A stretch of 64,000 nt of DNA, taken from assembly GCF_009914755.1 (NCBI RefSeq), contig NC_060934.1. One strand, 5' to 3'. Shown one piece after another: positions 1 through 62,363 of the stretch. This DNA comes from the human T2T-CHM13v2.0 reference genome, Homo sapiens. The notes beneath the pieces are model-generated. The model was not told where the DNA came from. It did no database searches and worked only from the letters and a program-made list of their open reading frames with translations. How positions within the stretch are numbered: the stretch's first letter is position 1; every line of letters starts with the position of its first letter. The position numbers and the translations under genes were made by a program.

Positions 1-3000
1 TGTAAAAGTGTTCCTATTTCTCCACATCCTCTCCAGCACCTGTTGTTTCCTGACTTTTTAATGATCACCATTCTAACTGGTGTGAGATGGTATCTCATTG
101 TGGTTTTGATTTGCATTTCTCTGATGGCCAGTGATGATGAGCATTTTTTCATGTGTCTGTTGGCTGCATAAATGTCTTCTTTTGAGAAGTGTCTGTTCAT
201 ATCCTTCGCCCATTTTTTGATGGGGTTGTTTGATTTTTTCTTGTAAATTTGTTTAAGTTCTTTATCGATTCTGGATATTAGCCCTTTGTCAGATGGGTAG
301 ATTGAAAAAATTTTCTCCCATTCTGTAGGTTGCCTGTTCACTCTGATGGTAGTTTCTTCTGCTGTGCGGAAGCTCTTTAGTTTAATTAGATCCCATTTGT
401 CAATTTAGGCTTTTGTTGCCATTGCTTTTGGTTTTTAACTCATGAAGTCCTTGCCTGTGCCTATGTCCTGAATGGTACTGCCTAGGTTTTCTTCTAGGGC
501 TCTTATGGTTTTAGGTCTGACATTTAAATCTTTAATCCATTCTTGAATTAATTTTTGTATAAGGTGTAAGGAAGGGATTCAGTTTTAACTTTCTACATAT
601 GGCTAGCAAGTTTTCCCAGCACCATTTATTAAATAAGGAATCCTTTCCTCCTTTCTTGTTTTTGTCAGGTTTGTCAAAGATCAGATGGTTGTAGATGTGT
701 GTGGTATTATTTCTGAGGGCTCTGTTCTGTTTCATTGGTTGATATCTCTGTTTTGGTACCAGTACCATGCTGTTTTGGTTACTGTAGCCTTGTAATATAG
801 TTTGAAGTCAGGTAGCATGATGCCTCCAGCTTTGTTCTTTTGGCTTAGGATTGTCTTGGCGATGCGGGCTCTTTTTTGGTTCCATATGAACTTTAAAGTA
901 GTTTTTTCCAATTCTGTGAAGAAAGTCATTGGTAGCTTGATGGGGATGGCATTGAATCTATAAATTACCTTGGGCAGTATGGCCATTTTCATGATATTGA
1001 TTCTTCCTACCCATGAGCATGGAATGTTCTTCCATTTGTTTGTGTCCTCTTTTATTTCATTGAGCAGTGGTTTGTAGTTCTCCTTGAAGAGATCCTTCAC
1101 ATCCCTTGTAAGTTGGATTCCTAGGTATTTTATTCTCTTTGAAGCAATTGTGAATGGGAGTTCACTCATGATTTGGCTCTCTGTTTGTCTGTTATTGGTG
1201 TATAGGAATGCTTGTGATTTTTGCACATTGATTTTGTATCCTGAGACTTTGCTGAAGTTGCTTATCAGCTTAAGGAGATTTTGGGCTGAGACAATGGGGT
1301 TTTCTAGATATACAATCATGTCATCTGCAAACAGAGACAATTTGACTTCCTCTTTTCCTAATTGAATACCCTTTATTTCCTTCTCTTGCCTGATTGCCCT
1401 GGCCAGAACTTCCAACACTATGTTGAATAGGAGTGGTGAGAGAGGGTATCCCTGTCTTGTGCTCGTTTTCAAAGGGAATGCTTCCGGTTTTCGCCCATTC
1501 AGTATGATATTGGCTGTAGGTTTCTCATAAATAGCTATTATTATTTTGAGATATGTCCCATCAACACCTAGTTTATTGAGAGTTTTTAGCATGAAGGGCT
1601 GTTGAATTTTGTGAAAGGCCTTTTCTGCATCTATTGAGATAATAATGTGGTTTTTGTCTTTGGTTCTGTTTATATGATGGATTACATTTATTGATTTGTG
1701 TATGTTGAACCAGCCTTGAATCCCAGGGATGAAGCCAACTTCATCACGGTGGATAAGCTTTTTGATGTGCTGCTGGATTTGTTTCACCCTTATTTTATTG
1801 AGGATCTTTGCATTGATGTTCATCAGGGATATTGGCCTAAAATTCTCTTTGTTTGTTGTGTCTCTTCCAGGCTTTGGTATCAGGATGATGCTGGCCTCAT
1901 AAAATGAGTTAGGGAGGATTCCCTCTTTTTCTATTGATTGGAATAGTTTCAGAAGGAATGGTACCAGCTCCTCCTCATACCTCTGGTAGAATTCGGCTGT
2001 GAATCTGCCTGGTCCTGGACTTTTTTTGTTTGGTAGGCTCTTAATTATTGCCTCAATTTCAGAGCCTGTTATTGGTCTATTCAGGGATTCAACTTCTTCC
2101 TGGTTTAGTCTTGGGAAGGTGTATGTGTCCAGGAATTTATCCATTTCTTTGAGATTTTCTAGTTTTTTTGTGTAGAAGTGTTTATAGTATTCTCTGATGG
2201 TAGTTTGTATTTCTGTGGTATCAATGATGATATCCCCTTTATCATTTTTTATGCATCTATTTGATTCTTCTCTCTTTTCTTCTTTATTTGTCTTGATAGC
2301 GGTCTATCAATTTTGTTGATCCTTTCAAAAAACCAGCTCCTGGATTCATTGATTGTTTTGCAGGGTTTTTTGTGTCTCTATTTCCTTCAGTTCTGCTCTG
2401 ATCTTAGTTATTTCTTGCTTTCTGCTAGCGTTTGAATGTGTTTGCTCTTGCTTCTCTAGTTCTTTTAATTGTGATGTTAGGGTGTCAATTTTAGGTCTTT
2501 CCTGCTTTCTCTCGTGGGCTTTTATTGCTGTAAATTTCCCTTACACACTGCTTTGAATGTGTCCCAGAGATTCTAGTATGTTGTGTCTTTGTTCTCATTG
2601 GTTTCACAGGACATCTTTATTTCTGCCTTCATTTTGTCATGTACCCAGTAGTCATTCAGGAGCAGGTTGTTCAGTTTCCATGTAGCTGAGCAGTTTTGAG
2701 TGAGTGTCTTGATCCTGAGTTCCAGTTTGATTGCACTGTGGTCTGAGAGACAGTTTGTTATAATTTCTGTTCTTTTACATCTGCTGAGGAGTGCTTTACT
2801 TCCAACTATGTTGTCAATTTTGTAATAAGTGCGATGTGGTGCTGAGAAGAATGTATATTCTGTTGGTTTGGGGTGGAGAGCTCTGTAGATGTCTATTAGG
2901 TCCACTTGATGCAGAGCTGAGTTCAATTCCTGGATATCCTTGTTAACTTTCTGTCTCGTTGATCTGTCTAATGTTGACAGTGGGGTGTTTAAGTCTCCCA

Positions 3001-60000: not shown

Positions 60001-62363
60001 GGCTTCATCCCTGGGATGCAAGGCTGGTTCAACATACACAAATCAATAAATGTAATTCAGCATATAAACAGAACCAACGACAAAAACCACATGATTATCT
60101 CAATAGATGCAGAAAAGGCCTTTCACAAAATTCAACAGCCCTTCATGCTAAAAACTCTCAATAAATTACGTATTGATGGGACATATCTCAACATAATAAG
60201 AGCTATTTATGACCAACCGACAGCCAATATCATACTGAATGGGCAAAAACTGGAAGAATTCCATTTGAAAACTGGCACAAGTCAGGGATGCCCTCTCTCA
60301 CCACTCCTATTCAACATAGTGTTGGAAGTTCTGGCCAGGGCAATCAGGCAGAAGGAAATAAAGGGTATTCAATTAGGAAAACAGGAAGTCAAACTGTCCC
60401 TGTTTGCAGATGGCATGATTGTATATCTAGAAAACCCCATTGTCTCAGCCCAAAATATCCTTAAGCTCATAAGCAACTACAGCAAAGTCTCAGGATACAA
60501 AATCAATGTGCAAAAATCACAAGCATTCTTATACACCAATAACAAACAAACAGAGAGCCAAATCATGAGTGAACTCCCATTCACAATTGCTTCAAAGAGA
60601 ATAAAATACCTAGGAATCCAACTTACAAGGGATGTGAAGGATCTCTTCAAGGAGAACTACAAACCACTGCTCAATGAAATAAAAGAGGATACAAACAAAT
60701 GGAAGAACATTCCATGCTCATGGATAGGAAGAATCAATATCATGAAAATGGCCATACTGCCCAAGGTAATTTATATATTCAATGCCATCCCCATCAAGCT
60801 ACCAATGACTTTCTTCACAGAATTGGGAAAAACTACTTTAAAGTTCATATGGAACCAAAAAAGAGCCTGCATTGCCAAGTCAATCCTAAGCCAAAAGAAC
60901 AAAGCTGGAGGCATCACACTACCTGACTTCAAACTATACTACAAGACTACAGTAACCAAAACAGCATGGTACTGGTACCAAAACAGAGATATCGACCAAT
61001 GGAACAGAACAGAGCCCTCAGAAATAATGCCACACAAGTACAACCATCTGATCTTTGACAAACCTGACAAAAACAAGAAATGGGGAAACGATTCCCTATT
61101 TAATAAATGGTGCTGGGAAAACTGGCTAGCCATATATAGAAAGCTGAAACTGGATCCCTTCCTTACACCTTATACAAAAATTAATTCAAGAAGGATTAAA
61201 GACTTAAATGTTAGACCCAAAACCATAAAAACCCTAGAAGAAAACCTAGGCAATACCATTCAGGACATAGGCATGGGCAAGGACTTCATGTCTAAAACAC
61301 CAAAAGCAATGGCAACAAAAGCCAAAATTGACAAATGGGATCTAATTAAACTAAAGAGCTTCCGCACAGCAAAAGAAACTACCATCAGAGTGAATAGGCA
61401 ACCTACAGAATGGGAGAAAATTTTTGCAATCTAGTCATCTGACAAAGGGCTAATATCCAGAATCTGCAAAGAACTCCAACAAATTTACAAGAAAAAAAAC
61501 AAACAACCCCATCAAAAAGTGGGCAAAGGATATGAACAGACACTTCTCAAAAGAAGACATTTATGCAGCCAAAAGACACATGAAAAAATGCTCATCATCA
61601 CTGGCCATCAGAGAAATGCAAATCAAAACCACAATGAGATACCATCTCACACCAGTTAGAATGGCAATCATTAAAAAGTCAGGAAAAAACAGGTGCTAGA
61701 GAGGATGTGGAGAAATAGGAACACTTTTACACTATTGGTGGGACTGTAAACTACTTCAACCATTGTGGAGGTCAGTGTGGTGATTCCTCAGGGGTCTAGA
61801 ACTAGAAATACCATTTGACCCAGCCATCCCATTACTGGGTATATACCCAAAGGATTATAAATCATGCTACTATAAAGACACATGCACACGTATGTTTACT
61901 GCAGCACTATTCACAATAGCAAAGACTTGGAACCAACCCAAATGTCCAACAATGATAGACTGGATTAAGAAAATGTGGCACATATACACCATGGAATAGT
62001 ATGCAGCCATAAAAAATGATGAGTTCATGTCCTTTGTAGGGACATGGATGAAGCTGGAAACCATCATTCTCAGCAAACTATCGCAAGGACAAAAAACCAA
62101 ACACCACGTGTTCTCACTCATAGGTGGGAATTGAACAATGAGAACACTTGGACACAGGAAGGGGAACATCACACACCTGGGCCTGTCGTGGGGTAGCCGG
62201 GAGCGGGGAGTGATAGCATTAGGAGGTATACCTAATGTAAATGACAAGTTAATGGGTGCAGCACACCAACATGGCACATGTATACATATGTAACAAACCT
62301 GCACATTGTGCACATGTACTCTAAAACTTAAAGCAAATAAAAAAACAATAATAATAATTAAAA
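57001..62363 (+). mobile_element. L1PA4/5-like LINE-1 (copy B), truncated within its 5'UTR and nested in ORF2 of the older L1
   Basis: Begins ccagaggaaagatcaggcagc; ORF1 remnants from about 57239; ORF2 remnants 58318-61434; 3'UTR and A tail; host sequence aaccca flanks both ends. Confidence 0.95.
59593..61434 (+). pseudogene. L1 ORF2 remnant, 613-aa open stretch; catalytic FADD changed to FADG
   Basis: ORF track shows [11 protein letters not shown]; upstream frameshifts. Confidence 0.9.

What the first reader, a model, noticed from the sequence alone, without database searches (positions are those of the whole stretch)
1..62363. Inverted L1PA pair around the CTNNA3 exon shares non-consensus, probably deleterious substitutions: candidate long-range gene conversion
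Seen: copy A (1-5521, minus) and copy B (57001-62363, plus) carry the same base at these homologous sites (A/B positions): 2881/58859 (YRT>YRA), 2823/58917 (YSK>YYK), 2419/59321, 1976-77/59760-61 (YKE>YEE), 1851/59886 (TKK>TNK), 1613/60124 (KAFD>KAFH), 741/60993 and 368/61363 (SFC>SFR). All differ from the L1PA consensus as I recall it, and four are transversions. The copies still differ at subfamily-type sites in between (gccaagaca/gccaagtca, gcagccaaca/gcagccaaaa). Established: the S of EN YSKID and the D of RT KAFD are conserved. Inference: an active source element is unlikely to carry these changes, so they more probably arose in one copy after insertion and were copied to the other in patches across about 51 kb. 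A crossover between the pair would invert the coding exon.
Basis: partly seen in the sequence, partly recalled or inferred. Interest (0 to 1): 0.8.

Follow-up and report, generated by a model that had tools for sequence, protein, structure and literature searches.

The report
Neighbouring dead L1s share private mutations
Two old, inactive L1 retrotransposons on either side of a CTNNA3 exon really do share rare mutations seen almost nowhere else in the genome, and so do at least two more L1 copies nearby, which is best explained by neighbouring repeats copying short patches of sequence from one another.

Summary
All 9 listed A/B positions are homologous and carry the same base. 0 to 4 of 44 unlinked L1 copies carry each base.

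Two tested haplotypes occur nowhere else in the 3.1-Gb assembly. 2881G+2823A is found only in A, B and a third copy C. 1977T/1976G+1851C is found only in A and B. A and B also share a stop codon, Y1231*.

A and B are separate insertions, each nested in its own older L1.

The sharing is not a property of the pair. Copies C and D (upstream, outside the window) and more weakly E (downstream) share other private haplotypes in mutually incompatible combinations.

A's real partner is C. Together they form an 8.7-kb inverted repeat with a 9.4-kb spacer, 72-100% mosaic identity, a 564-bp identical run, and crosswise target-site duplications that record a past inversion.

Best reading: old, patchy non-allelic gene conversion within a local L1 cluster, recent only between A and C. 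For A-B alone, the tract evidence is weak. This is a known kind of process.

The parts
1..5518 (-). Copy A: full-length L1PA, about 6.1 kb, continuing to win -608 outside the window. It is the right arm of an 8.7-kb inverted repeat whose other arm (C) lies at chr10:68426827-68435514.
   Evidence: It aligns end to end with 6.0-6.3-kb genomic L1 copies. It carries 7 in-frame stops downstream of the ORF2 start and 5 frameshifting indels.
5542..8244 (-). 5' part of an older L1 ('O') into which A inserted. O continues on the other side of A, outside the window.
   Evidence: L1 positions 1419-3760 here at 68-76% identity; positions 3797-5774 lie beyond A's 3' end on the same strand.
2813..2888 (-). 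A's copy of the 2881G+2823A haplotype (T183A, S202Y).
   Evidence: this exact two-motif pattern has only 3 places in the 3.1-Gb genome, namely C, A and B.
1842..1983 (-). A's copy of the 1977T/1976G+1851C haplotype (K485E, K526N).
   Evidence: only 2 places genome-wide, A and B. C and D carry the majority bases.
27187..27379 (-). CTNNA3 coding exon lying between A and B.
   Evidence: Taken from the annotation supplied with the finding; not re-derived here.
54082..56999 (+). Older L1 that hosts B, part upstream of B.
   Evidence: 81-84% identical to A, B and C. Its L1 coordinates run on directly into win 62368 onward.
57001..62366 (+). Copy B: 5'-truncated L1PA (it starts at the point matching A's win 4753) with an A-rich tail. 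An independent insertion.
   Evidence: 6 in-frame stops downstream of the ORF2 start and 3 frameshifting indels.
58852..58927 (+). B's copy of the 2881G+2823A haplotype.
59754..59895 (+). B's copy of the 1977T/1976G+1851C haplotype.
62368..63802 (+). Older L1 that hosts B, continuation after B. It is interrupted by a ~300-bp dispersed repeat at about win 62773-63059.

Best explanation
A and B are two separately inserted, long-dead L1PA elements. The private substitutions they share were moved between copies after insertion by non-allelic gene conversion: a break in one L1 is repaired using a nearby L1 as template, which copies a short patch.

This was not a private affair of the pair. At least four L1PA copies within the same 120 kb exchanged patches: D, C, A and B, with E a weaker candidate, in alternating orientation. 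Each pair or trio now carries its own private haplotype, and the combinations cannot fit one tree.

Exchange is most intense, and still recent, between A and C, the arms of an 8.7-kb inverted repeat with a 9.4-kb spacer. That pair also underwent at least one crossover, which inverted the spacer. The preferred account of how the arms arose is Model 2 in the full report.

Shown here: the shared bases, their local restriction, independent insertion of A, B and D, incompatible sharing patterns, the A/C mosaic, the crosswise TSD and the split host element.

Inferred: that conversion is the transfer mechanism, the direction of each transfer, the age of each event, and the order of the A/C events.
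For: 1. Independent insertions.
- B interrupts an older L1 whose coordinates run on across it.
- A interrupts a different old L1, O.
- D has its own 14-bp target-site duplication.
- The 5' truncation points all differ.

2. Locally restricted haplotypes (places in the whole genome).
- AB: 2 of 2 are local.
- ABC: 3 of 3.
- ACD 3'UTR 25-mer: 3 of 3.
- AD 27-mer: 2 of 4.
- CD 25-mer: 2 of 3.
- BC 22-mer: 2 of 10.
- 741C: 5 of 18.
- 1613C: 3 of 47.

3. Excess over unlinked pairs (win 300-3000). Shared rare bases: A-B 9, C-B 9, A-D 10, C-D 9, B-D 4. Each local copy against the 44 unlinked copies gives means of 0.5-0.8 and a maximum of 3.

4. Incompatible patterns where A, B, C and D all align. AB 4, CD 4, AD 6, BC 3, BD 4, ABC 3, ACD 12, BCD 1, ABCD 1. 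AB+CD and AD+BC cannot both fit one tree.

5. Shared inactivating changes between independent insertions. Y1231* is in A and B. W899* and W1208* are in A, C and D. D606H is in A, B and C.

6. A and B are reciprocal nearest relatives in 2 of 52 windows, starting at win 2078 and win 1179. B is A's nearest sequence in 7 of 52 windows, out of up to 50 sequences.

7. A/C conversion and crossover.
- Identity runs from 72-86% (5' 1.4 kb) to 99-100% (win 3348-2350).
- The longest identical run is 564 bp, P = 0.0005.
- The non-L1 flank differs at 3 of 1111 bases.
- The 16-mer GAAACTATCTGAATGC occurs exactly twice in the 94 kb read: just 5' of C, and inverted just after the poly(A) of the right arm.
- The last part of host L1 O lies in plus orientation beside the left arm (alignment score 76, shuffle maximum 40), while O's 5' part lies in minus orientation beside A.

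8. Published precedent, from passages I read. Conversion between neighbouring Alus falls off with distance (PMC8230782, PMC6598467). L1-mediated inversions are recognised by mismatched TSDs (PMC2603318).
Against: - For A-B, the signs of a tract are weak. Mismatch density near the shared sites is 5.7%, against 6.6% at random sites (p = 0.18). The same direction but no significance holds for C-B, A-D, C-D and B-D (p = 0.10-0.34).
- A-B's longest identical run is 144 bp, P = 0.0135. It is one of ten pair tests and was not corrected for regional rate differences.
- The weak-to-strong bias expected from GC-biased conversion is only a trend: 21 W>S against 14 S>W among shared variants, 131 against 151 among private ones, p = 0.15.
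- The shared sites are spread thinly and evenly (11 in 4.8 kb). That is also what common descent from one source predicts.
- Some haplotypes have unlinked carriers: AD 2, CD 1, BC 8. Small source lineages with these variants therefore exist or recur.
- Distances of 51-72 kb exceed the roughly 10-kb range reported for Alu conversion (PMC8230782 and PMC6598467, passages).
- No outgroup was available, so no event is dated or polarised.
- E's membership in the network is weak. It shares 741C with all four copies and otherwise only three single rare sites, one each with A, B and C. That is within what unlinked pairs show.
Confidence: 0.6

Rival explanations
1. Common descent. A (with C), B and perhaps D and E are offspring of one rare L1 source lineage and inherited the shared variants from it. 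In the strong form, the source sat at this locus and its RNA re-inserted nearby. On that reading the left arm is a retrocopy of A carrying a 2.5-kb 3' transduction, placed 9.4 kb from its source.
For: - The shared sites are spread evenly, and A-B divergence beside them is almost as high as elsewhere.
- After undoing the inversion, the left arm looks like a transduction retrocopy. It starts at an L1 5' end, ends at the poly(A) of the downstream fragment F, and is flanked by a 16-bp direct repeat.
- 741C is present in all five local copies.
- The AD, CD and BC haplotypes have 2, 1 and 8 unlinked carriers, so small lineages with such variants exist.
Against: - The sharing sets are not nested. D shares 18 private bases with A that B lacks (AD 6, ACD 12), and B shares 7 with A that D lacks (AB 4, ABC 3). 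Recombination is needed in any case.
- The shared changes include stop codons and D606H, so a source carrying them would have had to be mobilised in trans.
- Zero unlinked carriers were found for the AB, ABC and ACD haplotypes. No unlinked place has both 1613C and 741C.
- Private loads differ twofold: D 114 against B 54 singletons over the same columns.
- Against the retrocopy reading: A and C are only 72-86% alike over the 5' 1.4 kb. F1 and F2 differ at 47 sites over the roughly 1.1-kb fragment, of which about 40 lie in its well-aligned part (about 3.5%), while the adjoining old-L1 piece differs by 0.27%.
- No local re-insertion bias of L1 is known to me (recalled).
Confidence: 0.2
2. Chance: independent parallel mutations at hypermutable sites in two heavily mutated copies.
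For: - A and B each carry many private changes: 162 and 125 differences from the panel majority in 2.8 kb.
- The 1977/1976 change could pass through a CpG intermediate.
- The 1613C and 741C k-mers recur at 44 and 13 other places.
Against: - 9 shared rare bases, against a maximum of 3 for A or 2 for B when compared with any of the 44 unlinked copies.
- 946 unlinked pairs give a mean of 0.45 and a maximum of 6, against 11 for A-B.
- Five of the shared changes are transversions away from CpG: 2823, 1851, 1613, 741 and -267.
- The two-site haplotypes are unique to the locus.
Confidence: 0.04
3. Segmental duplication: A and B are DNA-level copies of a single L1 insertion.
For: Part of the A/C arm homology extends beyond the L1, into 2.5 kb of flank.
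Against: - B has different flanks and sits precisely inside a different old L1, with continuous host coordinates.
- Homology between B and A or C stops at the L1 ends.
- The 5' ends differ.
- A-B identity (92.9%) is no higher than A against unlinked copies (93-94%).
Confidence: 0.02

Closest known systems
Non-allelic gene conversion between neighbouring dispersed repeats. Best studied for Alu (Aleshin & Zhi 2010, as cited in PMC8230782 and PMC6598467; I read passages of those two papers, not the original).
   Same: Independently inserted copies share non-diagnostic mutations. Sharing is tied to physical proximity. The resulting mosaics do not fit a single tree.
   Different: The elements here are 3-6-kb L1s, not 300-bp Alus. 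Distances are 1.4 to about 72 kb, against the ~10-kb range quoted for Alu. Several copies are involved, and stop codons are among the shared changes. No outgroup evidence was available.
Arm-to-arm conversion in inverted repeats and palindromes, e.g. human Y palindrome P6 (PMC3723533; search listing and start of abstract only).
   Same: A and C are inverted arms with a short spacer, have 99-100% identical tracts, and show evidence of an inversion.
   Different: The arms are only 8.7 kb and are strongly mosaic (72-100%), not above 99.9% throughout. They seem to have been assembled from two unrelated L1 insertions rather than from a duplication.
Retrotransposon recombination-mediated inversion, RRMI (Lee et al. 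2008, PMC2603318; abstract, passages, and Table S1 searched for chr10).
   Same: An inverted L1 pair, chimeric elements, and TSDs that no longer match on one element but match crosswise.
   Different: Here the recombining homology includes a third L1 fragment (F) and flank sequence. The orientation in other primates was not tested. The only chr10 row in their Table S1 (P49) is a ~0.5-kb chimpanzee-specific event in hg18 coordinates that I could not map to this window.
LINE-LINE NAHR substrates (Startek et al. 2015, PMC4344489; abstract and passages).
   Same: Long L1 pairs on one chromosome, in direct (B/C) and inverted (A/B, A/C) orientation, flanking an exon.
   Different: That study finds enrichment at CNV breakpoints only from about 95-96% identity. 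A-B is 92.9%, so it is a poor present-day substrate. A/C has tracts above the threshold.

Membership tests
Non-allelic (interlocus) gene conversion between dispersed repeats | The copies arose by independent insertion, not by duplication of one copy. | tested here: met
   B is nested in its own old L1 with continuous host coordinates. A is nested in another old L1. D has its own 14-bp TSD. The 5' ends all differ. E is 5'-truncated at a further point, but its flanks were not read.
Non-allelic (interlocus) gene conversion between dispersed repeats | Shared derived bases that are not subfamily or source-lineage characters. | tested here: met
   0-4 of 44 unlinked copies carry each base. The AB, ABC and ACD haplotypes have no unlinked exact match in 3.1 Gb. 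Caveat: exact matching could miss a lineage of up to about a dozen copies.
Non-allelic (interlocus) gene conversion between dispersed repeats | Mosaic, tree-incompatible distribution of shared variants along the sequence. | tested here: met
   AB 4, CD 4, AD 6, BC 3, ABC 3 and ACD 12 in the columns common to A, B, C and D.
Non-allelic (interlocus) gene conversion between dispersed repeats | Discrete tracts of raised identity bounded by normal divergence (GENECONV-type signal). | tested here: inconclusive
   Met for A-C: 564-bp run, P = 0.0005; mismatch density near shared sites p = 0.0002. Weak for A-B: 144-bp run, P = 0.0135 uncorrected; density test p = 0.18. GENECONV itself was not run.
Non-allelic (interlocus) gene conversion between dispersed repeats | The pre-conversion state is seen at the orthologous locus in an outgroup. 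| not testable with these tools
   No primate genomes are held; the genome search reports no relatives for this genome.
Retrotransposon recombination-mediated inversion (RRMI) | An inverted pair of homologous elements whose TSDs or flanks match crosswise rather than on one element. | tested here: met
   The 16-mer lies 5' of C and, inverted, after the right arm's poly(A); these are its only 2 occurrences in 94 kb. Host L1 O is split into a minus-strand 5' part beside A and a plus-strand 3' end beside the left arm.
Retrotransposon recombination-mediated inversion (RRMI) | The opposite orientation of the spacer in an outgroup or in other haplotypes. | not testable with these tools
   No other assemblies are available.
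L1 retrocopy with 3' transduction (left arm as offspring of A) | The unit starts at the L1 5' end, ends at a downstream poly(A), is flanked by a TSD, and its extra sequence matches the source's 3' flank. | tested here: met
   After undoing the inversion, all four features hold.
L1 retrocopy with 3' transduction (left arm as offspring of A) | The offspring matches its source along the whole length, with one uniform age. | tested here: not met
   The 5' 1.4 kb is 72-86% alike, and A and C look like different subfamilies there. F1-F2 divergence is about 3.5%, against 0.27% in the adjoining piece. I therefore do not file the arm as a retrocopy.
L1PA (primate LINE-1) | Full-length colinearity with genomic L1s, an ORF2 with EN and RT motifs, and an A-rich 3' tail. 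| tested here: met
   A aligns over positions 83-6209 of its 6.3-kb extract (its full 6.1-kb L1 length) with 6.0-6.3-kb copies at 92-94%. The YSKID and KAFD contexts are present. The subfamily (L1PA4-7) was not named because no Dfam library is held.

The most novel reading that the evidence does not exclude
A locus-bound L1 lineage. The resident full-length element at A's position was copied through RNA into its own neighbourhood. The clearest case would be the 8.7-kb left arm: L1 plus 2.5 kb of its 3' flank, ending at the next poly(A), flanked by a 16-bp TSD, and lying 9.4 kb from the source. B, D and E might be further local offspring. That would imply that L1 RNA, perhaps nascent and mobilised in trans, can re-insert preferentially near its site of transcription.
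Probability: 0.1. Interest if true: 0.8.

Novelty: new member of a known kind. Interest (0 to 1): 0.45.

Why it matters
- **Dead L1s still exchange sequence.** Long-dead L1 copies inside a gene's intron have traded sequence with neighbours tens of kilobases away. The traded material includes stop codons and an RT-motif change. Divergence-based ages, subfamily calls and source-offspring inference for old L1s can therefore be distorted locally.
- **The locus has already rearranged.** The A/C arms record an inversion. They still hold tracts up to 564 bp long with no mismatch, so the 9.4-kb spacer may flip recurrently or be polymorphic in people.
- **The exon sits between L1 pairs.** A/B are inverted and C/B are direct around the CTNNA3 exon. 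A crossover would invert it or delete/duplicate it. At 92.9% identity, A/B is below the ~95-96% level at which LINE pairs are enriched at CNV breakpoints (PMC4344489, passages), so the present risk looks low.
- **It is not a new mechanism.** This is a clear, multi-copy L1 example of a process documented mainly for Alu.

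Tried and rejected
- **Subfamily consensus explanation:** rejected.
- **Segmental duplication of A and B:** rejected by the flanks.
- **Simple nested source-lineage model:** rejected by the non-nested sharing sets.
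- **Left arm as a plain retrocopy of A:** I held this reading for a while. I demoted it after the 5' mismatch and the F1/F2 against O3 contrast.
- **Mistyped pattern:** my second motif began one base too early for B, so the pattern hit A only. Corrected.
- **Mismatch-density and W>S bias tests:** right direction, not significant.
- **Larger panel of B's relatives:** Only 5 of B's 39 listed relatives were fetched.
- **Subfamily naming:** not possible, as no Dfam library is held.
- **Literature on this locus:** CTNNA3 + inversion + LINE-1 gave 3 papers, none about this locus. CTNNA3 / inversion polymorphism / inverted repeats gave no listed paper holding CTNNA3. PMC3961182 has no chr10 or 10q21 mention. 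Szak et al. 2003 is not held. I therefore found no printed description of this locus, but only these searches were made, and the supplements of the inversion catalogues were not examined.
- **All-column 'both alleles common' count:** confounded by CpG recurrence and not used as evidence.

Full report
**What was checked first**

The window is chr10:68448001-68512000 of the assembly.
- Copy A is the reverse strand of win 1-5518. It is a full-length L1 of about 6.1 kb whose 3' end lies at win -608, outside the window.
- Copy B is win 57001-62366 on the plus strand. It is 5'-truncated at the point matching A's win 4753.
- They align at 92.9% (4484 matches, 343 mismatches). That is no better than A against unlinked genomic L1s, which give 92-94% over 2.7 kb for 39 of 39 listed hits.
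- Every A/B coordinate pair in the finding is homologous and carries the same base.
741 is synonymous.

**Are the shared bases unusual?**

I fetched all 39 non-self hits of a search with A's win 300-3000.

At the nine listed sites, 0 to 4 of these 44 unlinked copies carry the A/B base, and seven sites have none.

Over win 300-3000, A and B share 9 bases that at most one other panel copy carries. A against each of the 44 unlinked copies gives mean 0.80, max 3. B against them gives mean 0.50, max 2. An earlier count with a looser threshold gave 11, against mean 0.45 and max 6 over 946 unlinked pairs.

The panel has a weakness. Its majority lacks a ~130-bp 5'UTR block that A, B and C possess, and its members are 97-98% like their own majority. 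It is therefore mostly a younger subfamily, and 'rare in the panel' could simply mean 'typical of an older subfamily'.

I therefore relied on exact pattern searches of the whole 3.1-Gb genome:
- 2881G+2823A: 3 places, all local (C, A, B).
- 1977T/1976G+1851C: 2 places (A, B). One search was my mistyped version of this pattern.
- The D606H 24-mer: 47 places, 3 local.
- The 741C 24-mer: 18 places, 5 local.
- No unlinked place appears in both of the last two lists.

Exact matching misses any carrier with a private change in the 22-33 fixed bases. These zeros therefore bound a hidden lineage to about a dozen copies (my estimate) rather than exclude one.

**A and B are independent insertions**

B sits inside an older L1. 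Win 54082-56999 and win 62368 onward are consecutive in L1 coordinates. A sits inside a different old L1, here called O. O's L1 positions 1419-3760 are at win 8244-5542, and positions 3797-5774 lie beyond A's 3' end, all on the minus strand.

Both copies are riddled with stops and frameshifts. Downstream of the ORF2 start, A has 7 in-frame stops and 5 frameshifting indels, and B has 6 and 3. Segmental duplication of one insertion is excluded for this pair.

**The surprise: more partners**

A 301-bp piece of A (win 2700-3000) has a nearly identical copy 18 kb upstream on the other strand. B ties only at rows 19-28 of the 40 scored places. Reading 30 kb upstream of the window, plus one 2.4-kb stretch downstream, showed further L1PA copies:
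- D: chr10:68422064-68425428, minus strand, 3.4 kb, with its own 14-bp TSD.
- C: chr10:68426827-68432960, plus strand, full length.
- E: ends at chr10:68542051, minus strand, and is truncated further.

The order is therefore D(-) C(+) A(-) B(+) E(-), spread over 120 kb.

Where A, B, C and D all align, the derived alleles seen in at most one panel copy fall into these patterns:

| Pattern | Count |
|---|---|
| A only | 33 |
| B only | 54 |
| C only | 36 |
| D only | 114 |
| AC | 40 |
| ACD | 12 |
| AD | 6 |
| AB | 4 |
| BD | 4 |
| CD | 4 |
| BC | 3 |
| ABC | 3 |
| BCD | 1 |
| ABCD | 1 |

AB with CD, and AD with BC, cannot fit one tree.

Whole-genome patterns confirm local restriction for several of these:
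- The ACD 3'UTR 25-mer has 3 of 3 places local.
- The AD 27-mer has 2 of 4 local.
- The CD 25-mer has 2 of 3 local.
- The BC 22-mer has 2 of 10 local.

Stop codons are shared too. Y1231* (TAC>TAG) is in A and B only. W899* and W1208* are in A, C and D. E shares 741C with all four and otherwise only three single rare sites, one each with A, B and C. That is no more than unlinked pairs show, so E is a weak member.

**What this means for A and B**

A proximity-dependent process is needed, and only two exist: local copying of DNA, or local descent.

*Descent from one evolving source.* This predicts nested sharing sets. Instead, D shares 18 private bases with A that B lacks, and B shares 7 with A that D lacks. 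Some recombination is unavoidable. A source carrying stops and D606H would also have needed mobilisation in trans. I therefore favour non-allelic gene conversion among the neighbouring copies.

*Evidence for discrete A-B tracts is thin.*
- Mismatch density within 75 bp of the shared sites is 5.7%, against 6.6% at random positions (p = 0.18).
- The longest identical run is 144 bp (P = 0.0135, uncorrected).
- The W>S excess is a trend only: 21:14 among shared variants against 131:151 among private ones, p = 0.15.
- In 200-column windows, B is A's nearest sequence in 7 of 52 windows. A is B's nearest in 4 of 52. They are reciprocal best in two windows, starting at win 2078 and win 1179.

Any A-B exchange was therefore old or in very short tracts. 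It may have run through C (direct orientation, 72 kb away) as easily as through A (inverted, 51 kb away).

**The A/C pair**

A and C head an inverted repeat of 8.7 kb. The left arm is chr10:68426827-68435514. The right arm is chr10:68444873-68453518, which is win -3127 to 5518. The spacer is 9,358 bp.

Each arm holds the same parts in the same order: a full-length L1, a microsatellite, 1.3 kb of the old L1 O, a second microsatellite, and a 1.1-kb young-looking L1 3' fragment (F) with its A-rich tail.

Identity between the arms is a mosaic:

| Segment | A-C identity |
|---|---|
| 5' 1.4 kb | 72-86% |
| Next 0.8 kb | 93-95% |
| win 3348-2350 | 99-100% |
| win 2350-1150 | 88-95% |
| L1 3' end | 96-99% |

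- The region around win 3348-2350 contains a 564-bp run with no mismatch (win 2865-2301; P = 0.0005).
- The O piece differs at 3 of 1111 bases.
- F1 and F2 differ at 47 sites over the roughly 1.1-kb fragment, of which about 40 lie in its well-aligned part, about 3.5%.
- In the 5' 1.4 kb, C is 93-98% like the panel majority, while A is only 80-92%.

Two junction facts fix part of the history.
- The 16-mer GAAACTATCTGAATGC occurs exactly twice in the 94 kb read. One copy abuts C's 5' end. The other is inverted and abuts the poly(A) of the right arm's F.
- The last part of O (L1 positions 5798-6079) lies on the plus strand just beyond the left arm's F (score 76, shuffle maximum 40). O's 5' part lies on the minus strand beside A.

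A host element split into opposite orientations, together with a crosswise TSD, is the published signature of recombination-mediated inversion between inverted retrotransposons (PMC2603318, methods passage).

*My preferred sequence of events (Model 2, inferred).*
1. A younger full-length L1, X, inserted by chance about 9 kb from A, in the opposite orientation, with that 16-bp TSD.
2. A crossover between X's 3' end and F inverted the spacer.
3. Gap-repair conversion copied A's 3' part, the O piece and F into the left arm.
4. Conversion continues between the arms.

*The rival (Model 1).* The left arm is a retrocopy of A with a 3' transduction. This fits the boundaries. It fails on the 5' mismatch and on the unequal divergence of F and O.

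**Literature**

What I saw of each paper is stated in brackets.
- Conversion among neighbouring Alus acts within about 10 kb and falls off with distance (passages of PMC8230782 and PMC6598467).
- LINE pairs are enriched at CNV breakpoints from about 95-96% identity (abstract and passages of PMC4344489).
- Inversions flanked by inverted repeats recur, and conversion tracts are usually a few hundred bp (passages of PMC3961182).
- Recombinant L1s are recognised in pangenomes: 35 recombinant calls removed from 2,267 sequences screened (methods passage of PMC13192797).
- RT template switching makes chimeric L1 insertions (passages of PMC13174262).
- Searches for this locus found nothing.

**Verdict**

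Its interpretation is right in kind, namely post-insertion transfer between neighbouring L1s. It is too narrow in scope, and it is not proven for the A-B pair itself.

The more concrete structure at this locus is the A/C inverted repeat, with its recorded inversion and recent conversion. Most of it lies outside the window.

This is a good multi-copy L1 example of known processes, not a new one.

Noticed in passing
Outside the window: places listed (e.g. chr3:70045812 and 70054757; chr11:87642614 and 87702917; chrX:75279307 and 75380870; chr4:60878657 and 61048937; four on chrY): The D606H (KAFH) 24-mer has 44 places outside this locus, and several lie in close pairs 9-170 kb apart. They could be segmental duplicates, or the same kind of local sharing between neighbouring L1s.
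   Followed up: no
win 26015-26300 and 29140-29440 (also 31648-31945, 35990-36290, 41805-42100, 44145-44450, 62773-63059): Alu-sized (~300 bp) dispersed repeats, 81-86% alike. The first two lie in opposite orientation, 0.9 kb before and 1.8 kb after the CTNNA3 exon. Their family was not identified.
   Followed up: no
L002/L003: chr10:68432960-68433010 and 68434300-68434400; matching places in the right arm near win -610 and win -2000: (TA)n/(TG)n microsatellites at the L1 3' end and at the junction of the old L1 with fragment F differ in length between the two arms.
   Followed up: no
L002 16400-17514 of the joined read (chr10:68434400-68435514) and win -3127 to -2044: Fragment F in both arms is 93-100% like the panel majority across 150-column windows (97-100% in most). 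It looks much younger than A, B, C and D.
   Followed up: partly
chr10:85366870, chr11:32901130, chr9:26458690: Unlinked L1 copies carry the AD 27-mer (the first two) or the CD 25-mer (the third). This hints that D belongs to a small dispersed lineage and was the donor of those patches to A and C. They were not fetched.
   Followed up: no
Lee et al. 2008, Table S1 (PMC2603318): The only chr10 row is P49, a chimpanzee-specific inversion at hg18 chr10:69326545-69327049. I could not convert hg18 coordinates to this window, so its relation to this locus is unknown.
   Followed up: no
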